A stretch of 64,000 nt of DNA, taken from positions 6,977 to 70,976 of the forward strand of contig JAUUYL010000003.1 in assembly GCA_030590485.1 (NCBI GenBank), given 5' to 3'. Below are positions 207-7,616 of this stretch, piece after piece; within the stretch, counting starts at the first letter, position 1, and each line of letters opens with the position of its first letter. The stretch is from Lentisphaerota bacterium. Its GTDB lineage: Bacteria; Verrucomicrobiota; Kiritimatiellia; UBA8416; JAUUYL01. A model generated the notes under the pieces. It had not been told where the DNA came from and did no database searches. It saw only the letters and a list, made by a program, of their open reading frames with translations. Position numbers and translations under genes: made by a program.

Positions 207-3200
207 TCAGGATTTCTCCTGCAAGGGCGTAAAGAATGCCTCAATATCAGCAACGTCCCATTTGCTGATGACCTCTTTCTGATCGCTTAAAAGACCATTA
301 ATCAGCGCACTTTTCTTCTCCTGCAGCTCGAGAATCTTATCCTCAACAGTTCCCGCGGCAATAAGCTTGTAAACGAAAACCGGCTTATCCTGACCAATAC
401 GATGCGCACGGTCAGTAGCCTGATTCTCCACAGCAGGATTCCACCATGGATCATAATGAATCACAGTATCAGCGGCCGTCAGGTTTAGCCCTGTCCCTCC
501 GGCTTTCAGGCTGATGAGAAAAACAGGCACTTCGCCTGATTGAAATTCGCGTATCGGAGTTTTGCGGTCTTTTGTCCGACCGGTAAGCTTAACATACTTA
601 ATATTCTCCGCATCCAGAAGCTCTTCAATCAACTTGATCATGCTGACAAACTGTGAGAACAGAAGAATTCTCCGCCCTTCAGAAACCAGCTCCAGCAGTA
701 GATCGCGCAAGGCATCAAGCTTGGCCGAGTCTTTAACTTTTTCGGCCGCCTTCAGCTTGAGCAGCTTCGGGTGACAGCAGACCTGCCGCATCTTCAGCAA
801 AGCGTCCAGAACAATGATGTGCGATCGAGCCAGCCCTTTCTGTCTGATTGCATCGCGAACCGTTTTTTCCATAGATGCCCTGACGGTTTCATACAGATCT
901 TTCTGCCCGGCCGATAGTTCAATATGTTGGATCATCACGGTTTTCGGCGGCAACTCCTTAGCAACTTCATCCTTGGTGCGACGGAGCATAAACGGAGCAA
1001 TGCGCCGGGCCAGCAGGCGACGCGAATCCACATTGCCTGCCTTCTCAATTGGCACTCGGAACAGTCGCCGGAACAAAGCCTGATCACCGAGCAGACCCGG
1101 CACTACAAATGAAAAAAGCGACCACAGGTCGTCGAGATTGTTTTCCAGCGGTGTTCCGGTCAAAGCAATTCGTTGTTTCGCATGCAGCAATCTGACCGTT
1201 CGAGCCGCCTGTGTTTTATGGTTGCGCACAAACTGCGCTTCGTCCAACACCACCATATGAAACTCGTTTTTCAACAGCATCTTCCCGTCACGAACTAGAA
1301 GCGGATAGGAAGTTACAATCAAATCATATTCCGAAAATGTATCAAAAAACTCATCCCGCTCCGGGCCGTGCGATACATGAACCCGAAGTCCCGGGGCAAA
1401 TCGCCGCGTTTCGTCCTCCCAATTGTACAAAACGCTTGTCGGCGCAACAATCAGACAGGGTTTATCCAGGCGCCCTGATTCTTTTTCTATCAGAATATGC
1501 GCCAGCGCCTGAACGGTCTTTCCAAGCCCCATGTCATCTGCCAGTACCGCACCGAATCCGCTCTCCCGGAGAAACTGCATCCAGCTCACCCCTTCCTGCT
1601 GGTAGTCACGCAGCTCAGTCTTCAATCCCTTCGGAACCTCAACTGCAGGCACTTCCGGTAGCTGCATAAACCGCTGAAGCTTGCTCTTCAGCGATTCAGG
1701 CAAACGCCCCTCCCACGCTGATTCACCATCCAGGAGCCGTCCTAATTCCATGGCCCTTAACCATGGAATCTGCAAACACCCCTCTTTTTTTGCGACAACC
1801 TTTGTATCAAACAGCTCAAGAAGCATTGAGGCCAGCATTCGTAGCCGTTCCGCAGGAATCAGAAGATTACGTTCTTCCGACAATGGGAACACTATATTGC
1901 TGTCTAAAGCTTTGTTCAGTGAGCGTACGGAGGTGCGCCGAAGAAAATCCGTCAGCAACGGGATCAAGTTTATCTTCTCTCCATCAACGACAACGCCCAC
2001 TTCCGCATCAAACCAATCTACGCCAGATGCGCTCTCCTCCAGGTCAGCAAACCAGCTCTCAGGCTCTATCAGCGTCAATTCAAAAGATGGATCAAATTCG
2101 ACATCCCAGCCAAGCTCCTCCAGTCGGGGAACGGTCTGCGAGAGAAACGTCAAAAAGTCATTTTCCTCCTTCAGGGTCAGCCAGCCCCAGACCGGATCAG
2201 AAGGGTCTACCCAGTAGTAGACCCGCCCGACAACTTTGAAACCAACTCCGGCAAACGGGGCTTCCAGCCGTTCTTCCGCCTCGTAATCACGAATCACCGA
2301 GACAAGTGTATCACCATTCCACACAGAAATTAGTTCATCATGTGCAGCGGGGTCAACTGATACCGACCCATACAAATACTCAATCTTCACAGCGTGAACA
2401 GGCTGCCTGGACCCATATGCAAAATGGTTGACCTTAAGATCCTTTTCAGAGAACGTAAATAATGTCATTCGCGCTTTAGACAAAACACGCTCCTCACAAT
2501 GCGTAATATGCAAAGGCCTATGAATGCCCATATCTTTAGAAAATGTTTCATCCATTTTCTTAGAGAGCGCCTCAACATCGGAAGGATGAACCCCCGGCCC
2601 GCTTAGCCACGCATTCATCTGCGATGAAGTAAAAGATGTCTTCAGGCGCCCGAACGTCTTGGCCACCCCGTCAACATAGCACGGAATATCCATCGGAAGG
2701 AGAACCCCGTCACCACCGATTGCCAGATCCGGCTGTTGAGTTCCATCAGGCAGTACAGCCCAGGACAACTCCGCCTTTAAGGCATCACCCGGAGCCAGGA
2801 CATTCTCTTTGCCGATTTCCATCCAGCAACAGCGCCCGGTACCGACAACCCGCCCCAGCCATTCAACGGCCTTCGCTGAATTCAACGGCACAGAATGGAA
2901 TTCTGCTGACGGCAGCAACACCAACAGCTCCAGCAAGAGCTTCCTGTCAATATCCGAAACATACTCCTTTGTGACCAGCCTGGAAAAATCCTGCACGGCT
3001 TTCTGAGGTTCCCCCCACCGCCCGTCTTTCAATACTCTGGAAACAGAGAAGCCGATTGAAACAGAATGTCTCATCCTGTCCGGATTATTCCGCAAAAGAT
3101 AGACCAAAAACCTGTCGTCGCCCTTCTTTACGGGAACCGACACTTCGTTCGTAGTATCTGCCGCATATTGAATCGACGAAAGCCATGGCTGGTAGGGATC

Positions 3201-3554
3201 CGCAGGTACTATAGAAAACTCTTTTACGCGCATGATTTCTGCGAGCTTGTCCTGAGCCTCAGCTGCGAACATAGCCGCTGCTGCATGTTTGCACTGTTCA
3301 AAAACAGGGCAGTCGCAGTAACTCTCTACAGTAACCCAGCCATGCTCATTGAACGACAAACCCATATCAACTTCATATGAAGGCGCATATGATCCTGTAA
3401 CTATAGCGGAAATCGACAGATCTTCAACGCCAGGGAACAGGCGCTGGACTCCGCCAGCCCGGCAGATTTCACGCCCACGCCTCAGGGTCCTGGTATCAAA
3501 ATTATGTAGCCATTCAAGCATAGATGAAAAAAATACCTTTTGAAAACCCCGCAA
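207..3554 (-). CDS. SNF2-family DNA/RNA helicase with N-terminal SWIM zinc finger
   Basis: The 1115-aa ORF carries Snf2 ATPase motifs (GLGKT Walker A; DEAQ box in VLDEAQFVRNHKTQ; helicase C-terminal QATDRAHRIGQ). The N-terminal region has a CxC...CxH cluster (CDCPVFEQCKH) typical of SWIM. Confidence 0.85.
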   Translation of the reverse strand: MRGFQKVFFSSMLEWLHNFDTRTLRRGREICRAGGVQRLFPGVEDLSISAIVTGSYAPSYEVDMGLSFNEHGWVTVESYCDCPVFEQCKHAAAAMFAAEAQDKLAEIMRVKEFSIVPADPYQPWLSSIQYAADTTNEVSVPVKKGDDRFLVYLLRNNPDRMRHSVSIGFSVSRVLKDGRWGEPQKAVQDFSRLVTKEYVSDIDRKLLLELLVLLPSAEFHSVPLNSAKAVEWLGRVVGTGRCCWMEIGKENVLAPGDALKAELSWAVLPDGTQQPDLAIGGDGVLLPMDIPCYVDGVAKTFGRLKTSFTSSQMNAWLSGPGVHPSDVEALSKKMDETFSKDMGIHRPLHITHCEERVLSKARMTLFTFSEKDLKVNHFAYGSRQPVHAVKIEYLYGSVSVDPAAHDELISVWNGDTLVSVIRDYEAEERLEAPFAGVGFKVVGRVYYWVDPSDPVWGWLTLKEENDFLTFLSQTVPRLEELGWDVEFDPSFELTLIEPESWFADLEESASGVDWFDAEVGVVVDGEKINLIPLLTDFLRRTSVRSLNKALDSNIVFPLSEERNLLIPAERLRMLASMLLELFDTKVVAKKEGCLQIPWLRAMELGRLLDGESAWEGRLPESLKSKLQRFMQLPEVPAVEVPKGLKTELRDYQQEGVSWMQFLRESGFGAVLADDMGLGKTVQALAHILIEKESGRLDKPCLIVAPTSVLYNWEDETRRFAPGLRVHVSHGPERDEFFDTFSEYDLIVTSYPLLVRDGKMLLKNEFHMVVLDEAQFVRNHKTQAARTVRLLHAKQRIALTGTPLENNLDDLWSLFSFVVPGLLGDQALFRRLFRVPIEKAGNVDSRRLLARRIAPFMLRRTKDEVAKELPPKTVMIQHIELSAGQKDLYETVRASMEKTVRDAIRQKGLARSHIIVLDALLKMRQVCCHPKLLKLKAAEKVKDSAKLDALRDLLLELVSEGRRILLFSQFVSMIKLIEELLDAENIKYVKLTGRTKDRKTPIREFQSGEVPVFLISLKAGGTGLNLTAADTVIHYDPWWNPAVENQATDRAHRIGQDKPVFVYKLIAAGTVEDKILELQEKKSALINGLLSDQKEVISKWDVADIEAFFTPLQEKS

Positions 3555-3776
3555 GCAACGTCAATGCTGCCTTTATAAAATCAACCTGTCTACACAAGCG
3601 TAACCAGCCTCACATTCCAAGACCACATTAATCATCTGAAAGGTTACACTGGGAGTGATGATTTACAAAAATGTCCCGCAAGAGTCAAGAAGCGTATAGC
3701 AGGGAGGCCCTTCCGAAAAAGAGGAATTTGTATTGCCGGCCAAGCATTCTCCCTTCATTCCATCCGTCAGCCGCGC

Positions 3777-3843
3777 CTACGAGAGTGAACTTGCCGGCTG
3801 AATGCTCTGTTTCTTCAAGATGCAAAGAAAGTTTCTCCTGCAC
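3777..3843 (-). pseudogene. hipA/hipT-like relic (P-loop region fragment) in an intergenic spacer
   Basis: The 67-bp stretch 3777-3843 is about 87% identical (58/67) to 6380-6447 inside hipT. Its reverse-complement translation reads KKLYSFTVQEKLSLHLEETEHSAGKFTLVG, against the HipT stretch SVTIPGVQEKLSLHLEKAEHSSGKFTLVG. There is no start codon, and similarity is lost on both flanks. Confidence 0.5.
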
Positions 3844-3958
3844 AGTGAAAGAATAAAGCTTCTTGAAAAATCAGGAAAGAAAGCAGAAGCTGACAAGCTG
3901 AAGAAACAGTTCGAGGCAAACAAAAAAGCCACTATGGCGTAGAACAACAGAGGTATCA

Positions 3959-5440
3959 ATGAATATAAAGACTATATTAGTTATATACATTTCGTTATTA
4001 GTGAGTTTTGTGTCAGCAGCTGACCTTGAGCTTGCGTCACCATTTTCAGAGCACATGGTGTTGCAGAGGCAGATGCCTATTCCTGTCTGGGGCTGGGGTA
4101 AGCCGGGAAGTAAGATATCAGTCGAATTTGCGAGTAAAACAACAAAAGGCAAGGTCAGAGCAGACGGCAGATGGAAAGTTATTTTGCCAGCCGTTAATAA
4201 AGCAGGCGGCCCACATAAATTTACCGTTAAATCGGGTGATGCAGTAATTGAATATAAAGACGTTCTTGTTGGCGAGGTCTGGATATGCTCCGGCCAGTCA
4301 AATATGCAACAAGGTAGAGGAGTCCTGAAAAATGCTAAGCAAATGCTGGTCGTAGCCGCGAAGAAACCCATTAGATGTATGGAGGTGAAGCGCACGGTAA
4401 GATTTGAGCCGCAGGAACGTTGTTCGGGTAAATGGTCTAAACAAACTCCTAACAGTGCCGTTGCATTTGCGTTTGCTTATTATCTGAATAAAGATCAGGA
4501 CATACCTGTGGGAATCATTCTGACATGTTGGAGTAGCTCAAGCATAGAAGGCTGGATGCCTCTTGAGATGCAAAAACAGCTTCCACATTTCAAGACACAT
4601 ATGGATAAATTCAAGAAACAGGATACCAAGAAAGTAACAGCGCTTATAACTCAGGAAAAGAAAGGCAAAAAATGGGCGCAAAAGGATAATGTCTTTCTGC
4701 GTACTAGGCCTAATATCCTTTATAATGCTATGATGCATCCGCTTATTCCTTATGCAGCAAGAGGAATAGTCTGGTACCAGGGTGAGGCAAACTCTGAAAC
4801 CATGCAGACAACAAAACAGTATGGAACTACTTTGTCGTTATGGTGCAAAGAACTTCGCAATCGCTGGGGCAGGATCGAGCTATGTTTTATACCGGTGATG
4901 CTGCCAAGATTCGGGAAGATTCTCCCAAAGTCGCCCTCCACTGACCCAGGTAATCCTTCTGCGTATAGCTGGGCTTATTTCAGAGAAGCTCAAATGAAAA
5001 TTCTTGATCTTCCTAATACAGCAATTGCGAACACCATTGATCTTGGCGCTTTAAAGAACATTCATCCGAGAGATAAAGAGCTTATTGGTAAGCGACTTGC
5101 ATTATTAGCAGGTGGTTTAACTGGCGATGCTAAAGGTCTCGTGCAAGGACCTGTTTTTTCTGGAATGAAGAAAGAAGGCAAGAATCTGAGAATAAGCTTT
5201 AAGAATGCGGATGGATTAAAAACAATTGACGGCAAACCGCCCGCCGAGTTCTGGGTTGCCGGTAAAGACAATAAATGGGTACAGGCTACAACTAAAATAA
5301 GTAAAGACTCTGTAATACTGTCATGGGACGGTAAAGCTACGCCTGTAGCAGTACGCTATGCTTTTGCCGGATTTCCGAAAGTAAATCTTGTTAATAGTGC
5401 AGGACTACCTGCTATACCTTTCAGAACAGATACAAATTAG
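3959..5440 (+). CDS. secreted carbohydrate esterase, sialate O-acetylesterase-like (SGNH/DUF303 family)
   Basis: It has an N-terminal signal peptide and a GQSNMxxG motif (CSGQSNMQQG) with downstream conserved W/Y-rich blocks typical of sialic-acid-specific 9-O-acetylesterase domains. The gene is AT-richer than its surroundings. Confidence 0.55.
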   Translation: MNIKTILVIYISLLVSFVSAADLELASPFSEHMVLQRQMPIPVWGWGKPGSKISVEFASKTTKGKVRADGRWKVILPAVNKAGGPHKFTVKSGDAVIEYKDVLVGEVWICSGQSNMQQGRGVLKNAKQMLVVAAKKPIRCMEVKRTVRFEPQERCSGKWSKQTPNSAVAFAFAYYLNKDQDIPVGIILTCWSSSSIEGWMPLEMQKQLPHFKTHMDKFKKQDTKKVTALITQEKKGKKWAQKDNVFLRTRPNILYNAMMHPLIPYAARGIVWYQGEANSETMQTTKQYGTTLSLWCKELRNRWGRIELCFIPVMLPRFGKILPKSPSTDPGNPSAYSWAYFREAQMKILDLPNTAIANTIDLGALKNIHPRDKELIGKRLALLAGGLTGDAKGLVQGPVFSGMKKEGKNLRISFKNADGLKTIDGKPPAEFWVAGKDNKWVQATTKISKDSVILSWDGKATPVAVRYAFAGFPKVNLVNSAGLPAIPFRTDTN

Positions 5441-5672
5441 CAAGATAGGTTGTTAGGCTATTAGGATGATAGAAAAAAGGAGAGTGAGCACCGGAGGTGG
5501 GAGGTGGTTTGCATAGCTCACAGAGCGATACATGGGTCTTGCTGAGGCGTTGTAGGGGATTGCCATAATCCCGCTAATACACCTTGTTTTAGGGCATAAT
5601 CAGGCAACCAAATATTCAAATGAGCTTGCGTTTTTGATTTTTTCTTTGGCATAATATTTACCCTTGATCAGC

Positions 5673-6629
5673 TCAAAGCTCTAACCGCTCACGCCGAACA
5701 TTAATAAGGTCTTCAAACTCCTCTTTCTTCTCATCAGAGATAAAGCTTTGTTCAATAAATGACAAGACCGAAGAGATATTCGATACGACTCGTTCATATG
5801 CATTGTCTGCCTGCTTGTCATTCAACCCTATAGCCCCGGCAAAGGTGTCAAAATCACGGCGCTTCAGTTTTGCTTTCTTTCTGTTCAACGCAAGAGCGAT
5901 CTCTTCTGGATCATCAGCCTCTGAAATTAGAAGTCTGGTGGCAACAAGGTCATATGCCGGTGCCAACTGAACAAGATCCATCTTAGAATAATAGAGAGAG
6001 AAGTTCTTCAGGTGCATGTCAGCATTTCCAGTCAGGAAACAAAACAGCGTTATATCGAAGAGCTTGGTGATATCCAGCAATGGATGAGAAGAATACTCAC
6101 TGATAGCTTTCCCAATATTCTCCATGGAACTCCGGTATTTCTGCTCCGTCAACCGCTCTGTCAACTGACACATATCCTCCATGTGATGTATCTTCTTATT
6201 CTGAGTTCTGTCTATTCGCTTTGTAATATACGCCAACTCGCCAGAGTTAAGGCGTATCAGCCCATGAGCAACTGTCTTTATTCCGCATAACTCCGCAAGA
6301 TTCATAGTCAGGTCTTCAATTTCCGGCATCTCCGGATATTTCCTTACAGGAGGCTTCAGTATATAATCCCCCCATAAACCTACGAGAGTGAACTTGCCAG
6401 AAGAATGCTCTGCTTTCTCAAGATGTAAGGACAGTTTCTCCTGCACACCCGGAATGGTTACGCTACTCTTAACAATATTCTCAGCCAACGCCTCCAGCTC
6501 GTCCAATGCGTAAGGCATCTCGGGCGGAGTTGTCTTGCCGAAAAGAGACTTACTACAGGCCGGATGATACTCATTCTCTGAATCATCCAACGGCTGATAA
6601 CAACGCAAACATTTCCCTGTTATACTCAT
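5673..6629 (-). CDS. hipT: HipT-like Ser/Thr kinase toxin (HipA core kinase domain without the N-subdomain)
   Basis: It carries a Gly-rich loop VTIPGVQEKLSL (HipA ISVAGAQEKTAL), a catalytic motif GNADMHLKNFS (HipA GATDGHAKNFS) and a downstream AP-YDLVAT motif. Its stop/start overlaps the upstream hipS-like gene by 4 nt (ATGA). Confidence 0.85.
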   Translation of the reverse strand: MSITGKCLRCYQPLDDSENEYHPACSKSLFGKTTPPEMPYALDELEALAENIVKSSVTIPGVQEKLSLHLEKAEHSSGKFTLVGLWGDYILKPPVRKYPEMPEIEDLTMNLAELCGIKTVAHGLIRLNSGELAYITKRIDRTQNKKIHHMEDMCQLTERLTEQKYRSSMENIGKAISEYSSHPLLDITKLFDITLFCFLTGNADMHLKNFSLYYSKMDLVQLAPAYDLVATRLLISEADDPEEIALALNRKKAKLKRRDFDTFAGAIGLNDKQADNAYERVVSNISSVLSFIEQSFISDEKKEEFEDLINVRRERLEL

Positions 6630-6967
6630 TCGGCGTTATCTCCATCAATGGGCAGCGCGCCCACCATCCCAATGCAATCCTTGCAACAGGCAAGCAGAAG
6701 CCCCATCCTGTCATGAACATCTATCTTCCATGATCTATGAGCAATATCCAGGAGCCAGCCTTCCGGAATCAAACCATCAAAAAATGGAAACATGTATTTC
6801 TCATAAAACGGTTCTGACTGAAGCGGAAGCGTAAGACTGACACCCATGGATTCAGGATTCTCAATATACGCATTCTCATATGTAAAGGTATACCCATCGT
6901 CAGTCTCAGTCAGAATCCCTGCAATGACGTCATTATACAGTATGCTTGCTTTTCTATTCATGTTCAC
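6626..6967 (-). CDS. hipS: HipS-like protein (stand-alone HipA N-terminal subdomain)
   Basis: The 113-aa ORF resembles the HipA N-subdomain (the CKDCIGMVGALP block parallels HipA RDSVGAV). It is translationally coupled to hipT. Confidence 0.8.
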   Translation of the reverse strand: MNMNRKASILYNDVIAGILTETDDGYTFTYENAYIENPESMGVSLTLPLQSEPFYEKYMFPFFDGLIPEGWLLDIAHRSWKIDVHDRMGLLLACCKDCIGMVGALPIDGDNAE

Positions 6968-7172
6968 TTCTTCTCTGCTTCGGAGTCGGACTCATCTCAT
7001 GCCCGAACAAAGCAAGAACCTGATTAACCTTTTCCATATCCAAGCTCTTTTTCCCCTGCTCCATATCACGAATAAAGCGCAAACCAACACCAGCCCTATC
7101 CGCAAGATCCCTCTGCGTCATTTTCAACAGCTTACGCTTCTCCTTAAGAAACTTTGACAAAGTATTTTTCAT
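6954..7172 (-). CDS. hipB: HipB-like XRE-family HTH transcriptional regulator
   Basis: The roughly 72-aa ORF has the helix-turn-helix LKMTQRDLADRAGVGLRFIRDME. It overlaps the hipS start by 14 nt. The track ORF begins at GTG 7178, and an in-frame ATG lies at 7172. Confidence 0.75.
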   Translation of the reverse strand: MKNTLSKFLKEKRKLLKMTQRDLADRAGVGLRFIRDMEQGKKSLDMEKVNQVLALFGHEMSPTPKQRRSEHE

Positions 7173-7185
7173 AACCACAATACAA

Positions 7186-7284
7186 TATACCCGCTCGGGT
7201 ATATTGTCAATATATTTTTAGCCATTTATACCCGTACAGGTATATATTTTACTCAAAGCTGTTGAATATACCCGTTCGGGTATA
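7186..7284. promoter_or_regulatory. array of three 18-bp palindromes TATACCCG-NN-CGGGTATA (candidate HipB operators)
   Basis: The palindromes are at 7186-7203 (perfect 8-bp arms), 7227-7244 (one arm mismatch) and 7267-7284 (perfect arms). Centre-to-centre spacing is 41 and 40 bp. The array starts 14 nt upstream of the hipB ATG. E. coli HipB operators are TATCC-N8-GGATA palindromes. Confidence 0.6.
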
Positions 7285-7528
7285 TTCGGCTCGCAATTAC
7301 ACGATTTGTAGCAAACCCGTAACAAAATTCATGATTGCTGAAAAGTATATATCGCCATTACTCAACATTCATAAGCTATATCTGAGTTTCCAATCGTATA
7401 ACTATGGCGGTCTTGCGCACTGCCACAATTGCTCCAACACCCCTTATTTCACTGTATAATTTGTTACCTGCTCTTTCAAAAAAGCTTGCTGTTACAGTGC
7501 TAATACCCCATATTCATGCCCTCTTCAC

Positions 7529-7616
7529 GGAGGGGTGCCAGAGTGGCCGAATGGGGCGGTCTCGAAAACCGTTGATCCTTACGGATCCGTGGGTTCGAAT
7601 CCCACCTCCTCCGCCA
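7529..7616 (+). tRNA. tRNA-Ser (anticodon CGA), CCA encoded
   Basis: The 88-nt cloverleaf has acceptor GGAGGGG/CTCCTCC, an anticodon stem GCGGT/ACCGT with loop CTCGAAA, a long variable arm TGATCCTTACGGATCCG, a T-arm GTGGGTTCGAATCCCAC and a 3' GCCA end. Confidence 0.9.

What the first reader, a model, noticed from the sequence alone, without database searches (positions are those of the whole stretch)
3777..3843. Intergenic relic of a second hipA/hipT copy
A 67-bp segment between the SNF2 helicase gene and the esterase gene is about 87% identical to the P-loop coding region of hipT, which lies 2.6 kb away. The reverse-complement frame still translates to TVQEKLSLHLEETEHSAGKFTLVG, but there is no start codon and both flanks are unrelated. 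This looks like the remnant of an earlier hipA-family gene that was deleted or replaced. It points to turnover of TA loci at this site, or to a recombination scar left when the island was acquired.
Basis: seen in the sequence. Interest (0 to 1): 0.55.

Follow-up and report, generated by a model that had tools for sequence, protein, structure and literature searches.

The report
Orphan fragment of a hipT toxin gene
A 69-base piece of a toxin-kinase gene (hipT) sits alone between two unrelated genes, 2.6 kb from the intact hipBST toxin-antitoxin operon; it looks like inert debris from a different hipT allele and is an ordinary mark of toxin-antitoxin turnover.

Summary
Window 3776-3844 (69 nt, not 67) matches 6379-6447, codons 62-84 of the intact hipT gene, at 60/69 bases without gaps (E 1e-17). 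It is the only other copy in the 64-kb window. The edges are abrupt: the 60-nt flanks are 18-20% identical, and a hipT profile finds nothing else in six frames.

The fragment is not a recent copy of the resident gene. It is equally far from the resident hipT (9 differences) and from a foreign hipT allele (8), which themselves differ by 8. Six of the nine differences fall at third codon positions. All three amino-acid changes give residues seen elsewhere in the family.

I found no sign of function: no start codon with a ribosome-binding site, no plus-strand promoter, no terminator, no Rfam match and no unusual RNA fold. None of 83 other hipT loci carries a comparable partial copy.

Whether a whole gene once stood here cannot be tested, because neither flanking gene has a close relative in any database searched. 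A diverged 84-nt repeat bracketing hipBST, in the same order and orientation, gives modest support for an older module at this site.

Verdict: a real but ordinary gene fragment. Interest 0.15.

The parts
3776..3844 (-). Orphan 69-nt hipT fragment. It reads in sense on the minus strand and corresponds to codons 62-84, plus the last base of codon 61.
   Evidence: 60/69 identity to 6379-6447. The hipT profile HMM hits only here, iE 5.7e-7, HMM positions 62-84. Flanks are 18-20% identical.
6379..6447 (-). The homologous segment inside the intact resident hipT (VQEKLSLHLEKAEHSSGKFTLVG).
5673..6629 (-). hipT, the intact 318-aa HipA_C kinase toxin gene.
   Evidence: Pfam HipA_C E 9e-45. PDB matches: Legionella HipT 7vkb/8ezr at E 2e-47, E. 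coli O127 HipT 7ab3 at E 2e-15. The DMHLKN catalytic loop is present.
6626..6967 (-). hipS, 113 aa, homologous to the HipA N-terminal subdomain. It overlaps hipT by 4 nt.
   Evidence: Pfam Couple_hipA E 7.6e-24
6954..7178 (-). hipB, an HTH protein. The true start is probably the ATG at 7172, giving 72 aa as called in L001.
   Evidence: Pfam HTH_3 E 7e-10; 72-aa gene call in L001
7184..7286 (.). Three 22-nt palindromes (AATATACCCGyTCGGGTATATT) spaced 40-41 nt apart upstream of hipB. They are probably HipB operators.
   Evidence: The region is also similar upstream of hipB in L082, L083 and L084.
5546..5629 (+). Left copy of a diverged 84-nt direct repeat. It lies just past the hipT stop codon.
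   Evidence: 53/84 identity to 7406-7489. Ungapped score 22, against 9.5 +/- 1.2 (maximum 16) in 200 shuffles.
7406..7489 (+). Right copy of the 84-nt repeat. It lies immediately upstream of tRNA-Ser.
7529..7616 (+). tRNA-Ser(CGA), bordering the hipBST operon.
   Evidence: ARAGORN
207..3521 (-). SNF2/SWIM helicase gene. The fragment lies 255 nt upstream of its start.
   Evidence: Pfam. The exact 1104-aa product is on record.
3959..5440 (+). SASA-family sialate O-acetylesterase gene, between the fragment and hipT.
   Evidence: Pfam SASA E 4.7e-22

Best explanation
The 69-nt segment is an inert, untranslated orphan fragment of a hipT toxin-kinase gene. Its source was a hipT allele different from the resident one. 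Most likely it is what is left of an older hipBST module that lay between the SNF2 gene and tRNA-Ser. That module would have been displaced when the slightly GC-poor esterase-hipBST segment (about 3.5-7.5 kb) was installed. One breakpoint fell inside codon 61 (3844/3845). A second rearrangement removed everything beyond codon 84 (3775/3776). Shown: the fragment is hipT-derived, it comes from a distinct allele, its edges are sharp, and no functional signals are present. Inferred: the older module stood at this site, and the order of events.
For: Identity and uniqueness. Distinct allele: pairwise differences are relic-local 9, relic-L082 8 and local-L082 8, and the relic is the closest of the three to L084, 12 against 17 and 14. 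The relic peptide matches P0123 at 22/24 and the local HipT at 20/24. Six of nine differences are at codon position 3 (P = 0.04), the frame is intact, and the replacements are family-typical. This means the sequence diverged as a working gene and has decayed little since. Sharp edges: alleles as distant as L082 are 86-94% identical in the windows next to this segment, whereas the relic's flanks are 18-20% identical. Composition: GC is 43-44% across 3500-7500 against 47.3 +/- 2% for the window, and it drops from 45% left of the relic to 39.5% right of it. A tRNA-Ser borders the operon. A second collinear remnant exists: the 84-nt repeat 5546-5629 / 7406-7489 has the same order and orientation as relic and hipT. 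Second hipA-family genes or fragments lie near hipT in 4 of 83 loci, including a 127-aa C-terminal fragment in L149. No functional signals. No recurrence.
Against: No other piece of hipT, hipS, hipB or the operators survives next to the fragment. The in-situ model therefore needs two independent clean breakpoints only 69 nt apart. No related genome is available to show an intact gene at this position. The GC deviation is mild, about 1.5-2 SD. The 84-nt repeat can also be explained by insertion of the present hipBST cassette alone. Only 64 kb of the genome was searched, so a further hipT allele elsewhere cannot be excluded as the source.
Confidence: 0.5

Rival explanations
1. Ectopic capture of a short foreign DNA patch. 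A roughly 70-nt single-stranded or filler fragment of another hipT allele, taken up or released in the cell, was pasted into the intergenic spacer by illegitimate recombination. Short-patch double illegitimate recombination or double-strand-break filler DNA would do this. No hipT gene ever stood here.
For: One event explains both razor-sharp edges. It also explains the complete absence of other hipBST remnants. The fragment comes from a non-resident allele. Integration of short ectopic strands at microhomologies is a described mechanism (abstract of bioRxiv 10.1101/2023.11.22.568220, listed).
Against: No donor sequence was found: 0 hits for the relic peptide pattern in JGI metagenomes, and no exact peptide among the 120 best homologues. 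It would be a coincidence for a random patch of hipT to land 2.6 kb from hipBST, in the same orientation and collinear with the 84-nt repeat. Described SPDIR events are usually shorter (from my own knowledge).
Confidence: 0.25
2. Local duplication of the resident hipT segment followed by neutral decay of the copy.
For: The two copies are direct repeats 2603 nt apart on the same strand.
Against: The relic is no closer to the resident gene than to a foreign allele, 9 against 8 differences. It shares E72 and A77 with other alleles. Its differences are concentrated at codon position 3, with no stop or frameshift. Neutral decay of a copy would spread changes over all codon positions.
Confidence: 0.08
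3. A functional element. Either a plus-strand transcript, such as the esterase 5' leader, carries 69 nt antisense to hipT mRNA and damps toxin synthesis, or the minus-strand 52-codon GTG ORF makes a decoy peptide.
For: The complementarity to hipT mRNA is 87%, with perfect runs of 20 and 15 nt. The reading frame is still open. An 11-nt perfect inverted repeat, 3807-3817 / 3899-3909, involves relic-specific bases.
Against: No plus-strand promoter-like site and no terminator. No Rfam hit. Folding z-scores are -0.6, -0.3 and +0.1. The GTG has no Shine-Dalgarno-like sequence, whereas the esterase has AGAGGT. No gene is on record for the one ATG-start ORF here (3671-3856, +); the GTG- and TTG-start ORFs also returned no record, but that look-up is inconclusive because the start codon is not translated as Met (hipS and hipB missed in the same call). 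None of 83 other hipT loci, with 598 kb of flanks, has a partial copy of its own hipT.
Confidence: 0.05
4. Assembly artefact. In a metagenome assembly, reads from a second strain's hipT allele were threaded into this contig.
For: The source looks like a poorly sampled, probably uncultured lineage. An independent Logan contig, L001, confirms only 5084-7254 and does not reach the fragment.
Against: A chimeric join produces a single switch at a shared k-mer. It does not produce a 69-nt insert whose two flanks are both unrelated to hipT. The contig continues coherently on both sides, with intact SNF2 and esterase genes.
Confidence: 0.05

Closest known systems
Gene remnants left by displacement of toxin/immunity modules, for example orphan effector or immunity fragments in Vibrio cholerae T6SS clusters (PMC5361080; only its title and the start of its abstract, as listed, were read) and orphan cdiA-CT/cdiI or rhs fragments (from my own knowledge)
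   Same: A short piece of a toxin gene, covering a conserved stretch, lies beside an intact module of the same family. It comes from a different allele and has no start codon. This is consistent with an incoming module replacing a resident one.
   Different: Those orphans usually keep a variable toxin tip together with an intact immunity gene, and they recur across strains. Here only 23 codons from the conserved kinase core survive, no antitoxin remnant is present, and no second example was found.
HipBST tripartite toxin-antitoxin system (PMC6581861, PMC10627512, PMC9325769; only their titles and the starts of their abstracts, as listed, were read)
   Same: The source gene family. The resident locus has hipB-hipS-hipT in the canonical order with overlapping genes. 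The fragment matches the VQxKLS glycine-rich-loop region of HipT.
   Different: The fragment is not a member. It has no start codon, covers 23 of 318 codons, and has no partner genes.
Short-patch double illegitimate recombination and homology-facilitated illegitimate recombination (bioRxiv 10.1101/2023.11.22.568220; PMC3240628)
   Same: These are mechanisms that put short or one-side-anchored foreign DNA into a chromosome and leave abrupt junctions.
   Different: No microhomology or donor could be identified here. The mechanism is inferred, not shown.

Membership tests
hipT pseudogene fragment (gene relic) | Significant nucleotide similarity to a functional family member | tested here: met
   60/69 nt, E 1e-17. 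61/69 to the L082 hipT.
hipT pseudogene fragment (gene relic) | Similarity follows the coding frame, with family-typical residues | tested here: met
   Profile HMM iE 5.7e-7 at positions 62-84. Six of nine differences at codon position 3. E72, T73 and A77 occur in the family.
hipT pseudogene fragment (gene relic) | Cannot encode the protein: truncated, with no proper start | tested here: met
   Only codons 62-84 are present. Flanks are 18-20% identical. No ATG and no Shine-Dalgarno-like sequence.
hipT pseudogene fragment (gene relic) | An intact orthologue at the same position in related genomes | not testable with these tools
   The closest esterase is 56% and the closest SNF2 42% identical. 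No synteny was found in 80 genome loci.
HipBST toxin-antitoxin module (resident locus 5673-7178) | Three genes in the order hipB-hipS-hipT, with HipT carrying only the HipA_C core, HipS resembling the HipA N-subdomain, and HipB an HTH protein | tested here: met
   Pfam HTH_3, Couple_hipA and HipA_C. Gene overlaps are 14 nt and 4 nt.
HipBST toxin-antitoxin module (resident locus 5673-7178) | Sequence relationship to experimentally characterised HipT | tested here: met
   7vkb/8ezr (L. pneumophila HipT) at E 2e-47; 7ab3-5 (E. coli O127 HipT) at E 2e-15.
HipBST toxin-antitoxin module (resident locus 5673-7178) | Kinase toxicity neutralised by HipS | not testable with these tools
   This needs an experiment.
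Dispersed repeat / MITE | Multiple copies outside hipA-like genes, with terminal inverted repeats or target-site duplications | tested here: not met
   Only two copies in 64 kb, one of them inside hipT. None in 164 loci, plasmids, phages or viral contigs. No flanking inverted repeats or target-site duplication. The rest of the genome was not available.
Diversity-generating retroelement template/variable repeat pair | Mismatches confined to adenines of one copy | tested here: not met
   The mismatched bases are T, T, G, A, G, A, A, G, C in the relic and G, C, A, G, A, G, T, T, T in hipT. The pattern is not adenine-specific on either strand.
Antisense or structured regulatory RNA | Promoter and terminator, stable or conserved structure, recurrence in related loci | tested here: not met

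The most novel reading that the evidence does not exclude
The fragment is retained because it does something. One possibility is a 69-nt antisense patch in a plus-strand leader RNA that titrates hipT mRNA. The other is a homology arm: recombination between the two direct repeats would delete the esterase gene and HipT codons 85-318, which would give the cell a built-in way to disarm the toxin.
Probability: 0.04. Interest if true: 0.6.

Novelty: new member of a known kind. Interest (0 to 1): 0.15.

Why it matters
It matters little beyond this locus. It is one more piece of physical evidence that toxin-antitoxin modules are gained, displaced and eroded at chromosomal hot spots, here beside a tRNA-Ser gene. 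It shows that a second hipT allele, about as diverged as one from another organism, once contacted this genome. For annotation, the segment should be flagged as a pseudogene fragment. It should not be called as a small ORF or a regulatory RNA.

Tried and rejected
1. Further degraded hipT, hipS or hipB similarity around the fragment. I used tblastn with word size 2, a 120-sequence hipT profile HMM on six frames of 3300-4200, tblastx and best-diagonal DNA scans against shuffles. Nothing beyond codons 62-84 was found.

2. Synteny in related genomes.
- The genome-contig scan with the esterase gave at most 56% identity, with no SNF2 or hipT nearby.
- Protein searches with the esterase and SNF2 found no close relatives.
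- Exact look-ups found only a 2.2-kb Logan contig that stops short of the fragment.

3. A donor allele. No homologue among the best 120 carries EETEHSAGKF. The degenerate DNA pattern had 0 hits in JGI metagenomes.

4. Recurrence near other hipT genes: 0 of 83 loci at the DNA level.

5. Mobile-element or repeat origin: no plasmid, phage or viral match, and no inverted repeats or target-site duplication at the edges.

6. RNA function: no Rfam hit, no plus-strand promoter-like site and no terminator, ordinary folding energies.

7. A DGR template repeat: rejected on the mismatch spectrum.

8. A tRNA-derived att repeat marking an island boundary: none found in the window.

9. A first version of the flank screen timed out and was rerun.

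Full report
**What is at the coordinates**

The spacer between the SNF2/SWIM helicase gene and a SASA-family sialate O-acetylesterase gene runs from 3522 to 3958. The helicase gene is 207-3521 on the minus strand; its exact 1104-aa product is on record. The esterase gene is 3959-5440 on the plus strand.

Inside the spacer, 3776-3844 matches 6379-6447 at 60 of 69 bases. The match has no gaps, lies on the same strand and scores E 1e-17. The target lies inside a 318-codon gene at 5673-6629 on the minus strand.

That gene is a genuine hipT:
- It carries Pfam HipA_C only (E 9e-45).
- It is preceded by a Couple_hipA gene (hipS, 6626-6967) and an HTH_3 gene (hipB, 6954-7178), with 4-nt and 14-nt overlaps.
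- Its best solved relatives are Legionella pneumophila HipT (7vkb/8ezr, E 2e-47) and E. coli O127 HipT (7ab3, E 2e-15).

The fragment corresponds to codons 62-84. It reads VQEKLSLHLEETEHSAGKFTLVG, against VQEKLSLHLEKAEHSSGKFTLVG in HipT.

**Uniqueness and edges**

blastn of the whole spacer and tblastn of HipT, HipS and HipB against the 64-kb window find no further copy and no further similarity. The 60 nt on either side of the fragment are 18% and 20% identical to the corresponding hipT sequence.

This is not just loss of signal through divergence. The resident hipT and its closest foreign allele (L082, 82% DNA identity overall) are 86-94% identical in the 69-nt windows that adjoin this segment. 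One breakpoint falls inside codon 61: Gly61 is invariant in 120 of 120 homologues, but the fragment reads ACT there.

Three further tests found nothing more:
- A profile HMM built from 120 HipT homologues, run on all six frames of 3300-4200, finds only positions 62-84 (iE 5.7e-7).
- Best-diagonal DNA comparisons of the remaining spacer pieces with hipBST and its upstream region do not exceed shuffled controls.
- The fragment's edges have no flanking inverted repeats or target-site duplication.

**Which hipT did it come from?**

It did not come from the resident gene in any recent sense. Among the best 120 HipT homologues, the fragment's peptide matches P0123 at 22 of 24 positions and the resident HipT at 20 of 24. 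P0123 is 82% identical to the resident protein.

At the DNA level the pairwise differences over the 69 nt are:

| Pair | Differences |
|---|---|
| fragment vs resident hipT | 9 |
| fragment vs L082 hipT | 8 |
| resident hipT vs L082 hipT | 8 |
| fragment vs L084 hipT | 12 |
| resident hipT vs L084 hipT | 17 |
| L082 hipT vs L084 hipT | 14 |

The first three form a three-way star, and the fragment is the closest of the three to the more distant L084 allele.

Six of the nine fragment-resident differences are at third codon positions (P = 0.04 under uniform placement). The frame carries no stop or indel. The three replacements give residues present in other family members: E72 in 25 of 120, T73 in 3 of 120 and A77 in 32 of 120.

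Together this says the sequence diverged while it was part of a working gene, and has decayed little since it was cut out.

**Tests for function**

- There is no ATG. The GTG at 3843 opens a 52-codon ORF, but no Shine-Dalgarno-like sequence precedes it, whereas the esterase start has AGAGGT.
- The ATG-start spacer ORF (3671-3856, +) has no gene on record. The GTG- and TTG-start ORFs also returned nothing, but hipS and hipB missed in the same look-up, so that result is inconclusive for them.
- The promoter scan finds no plus-strand site in 3400-4100 and no terminator. It finds one minus-strand consensus match at 3959-3931.
- Rfam gives nothing at E up to 1.
- Folding energies of either strand are ordinary, with z-scores of -0.6, -0.3 and +0.1. 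This holds despite an 11-nt perfect inverted repeat at 3807-3817 / 3899-3909.
- The arrangement does not recur. In 83 other hipT loci (80 from JGI metagenomes plus L082-L084, 598 kb of flank) no locus has a DNA-level partial copy of its own hipT.
- At the protein level, 4 of the 83 loci have a second hipA-family sequence within 10 kb. Three are intact ORFs. One, in L149, is a 127-codon C-terminal fragment. Neighbouring paralogues and occasional fragments are thus part of the normal background of these loci.

**Context**

The 3500-7500 segment, holding the esterase and hipBST, has 43-44% GC. The window averages 47.3 +/- 2% and the SNF2 gene is 50.7%. GC is 45% in the spacer left of the fragment and 39.5% to its right. 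A tRNA-Ser(CGA) gene at 7529-7616 borders the operon.

I also found an 84-nt ungapped direct repeat, 53/84 identical, at 5546-5629 and 7406-7489. The left copy lies just past the hipT stop and the right copy just upstream of the tRNA. Its score is 22, against 9.5 +/- 1.2 (maximum 16) in shuffles.

The fragment and this left copy lie in the same order and orientation as their partners in the intact unit: hipT segment first, then the tRNA-proximal sequence. That is what one would expect if an older unit of hipBST plus tRNA upstream region once lay to the left of the present one and was later gutted. However, the repeat could equally come from insertion of the present cassette alone.

**What could not be done**

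It is impossible with current data:
- The best esterase homologue is 56% identical and the best SNF2 homologue 42%.
- None of the 80 genome loci shares synteny.
- The only near-identical DNA is a 2170-bp Logan contig covering 5084-7254, which does not reach the fragment.
- A degenerate pattern for the fragment's peptide found nothing in JGI metagenomes.
- The spacer has no match in plasmids, phages or viral contigs.

**Explanation and rivals**

The best-supported reading is an inert orphan fragment of a distinct hipT allele. It was most likely left when an older hipBST module at this tRNA-adjacent site was displaced and then trimmed. My confidence in the full in-situ story is 0.5; my confidence that it is non-functional hipT-derived debris of some origin is about 0.85.

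The rivals are:
- **One-step capture of a short foreign patch (0.25).** It explains the two clean edges more economically. It leaves unexplained why the patch sits next to hipBST, in the same orientation.
- **Local duplication followed by decay (0.08).** The equidistance to foreign alleles and the codon-position pattern count against it.
- **A functional antisense or decoy element (0.05).** No positive support was found.
- **An assembly chimera (0.05).** It is unlikely, because both junctions lead into unrelated sequence.

**Comparison with known systems**

This is the familiar debris of toxin-module turnover. Examples are the orphan effector or immunity remnants in V. cholerae T6SS clusters (PMC5361080, known here only from its title and the start of its abstract as listed) and orphan cdiA-CT or rhs fragments (from my own knowledge). 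The resident locus meets the sequence-level definition of HipBST (PMC6581861, PMC10627512 and PMC9325769, known here only from their titles and abstract openings as listed). The fragment is not a member of anything functional.

Novelty: a new instance of a known kind. Interest: 0.15.

Noticed in passing
window 5546-5629 and 7406-7489: A diverged 84-nt ungapped direct repeat (53/84 identical; score 22, against a maximum of 16 in shuffles) brackets the entire hipBST operon and its operator region. The right copy lies directly upstream of tRNA-Ser and contains TGTATAAT. This suggests the tRNA upstream region was duplicated or split when a hipBST cassette arrived.
   Followed up: partly
window 7184-7205, 7225-7246, 7265-7286: Three 22-nt palindromes, AATATACCCGyTCGGGTATATT, spaced 40-41 nt apart upstream of hipB. 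They are probably HipB operator sites. The region is also similar upstream of hipB in L082, L083 and L084.
   Followed up: partly
window 7529-7616; 3500-7500: tRNA-Ser(CGA) lies next to the hipB promoter region. The esterase-hipBST segment has 43-44% GC, against 47.3 +/- 2% for the window. No partial tRNA copy (att-like repeat) was found in the window.
   Followed up: partly
L001 (Logan SRR18920793) vs window 6764-6793: An independent 2170-bp contig is 99.86% identical to window 5084-7254. All three differences, two substitutions and a 1-nt deletion at 6785, cluster within 30 nt of hipS and frameshift the antitoxin gene, while hipT stays intact. This could be an assembly error or a real antitoxin-defective variant.
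   Followed up: no
window 6555-6611 (HipT residues 7-25): The HipT N-terminus carries a CxxC...HxxC motif (C7, C10, H22, C25) that is invariant in 119 of 120 homologues of this subfamily. In the one alignment shown, the L. pneumophila HipT aligns no residue to C7 and has no Cys or His at the columns of C10, H22 and C25. It may be a zinc knuckle of unknown role.
   Followed up: no
window 3807-3817 / 3899-3909 and 3807-3823 / 3858-3874: An 11-nt perfect inverted repeat and a 17-nt 82% inverted repeat both use the relic-specific bases of the fragment. Folding energy of the region is nevertheless ordinary (z = -0.6).
   Followed up: yes
window 3847-3943 (+): A lysine-rich open frame, ERIKLLEKSGKKAEADKLKKQFEANKKATMA*, abuts the fragment and ends 16 nt before the esterase start. 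It has no start codon and no similarity to anything in the window. It may be a second gene scrap or only A-rich leader sequence.
   Followed up: no
L149 1244-1627; L132 7038-8009; L109 375-1460; L138 11021-12334: Four of 83 hipT loci carry a second hipA-family sequence within 10 kb. Three are intact ORFs. One, in L149, is a 127-codon C-terminal fragment 2.4 kb from the main hipT, a possible relic of the same general kind.
   Followed up: partly
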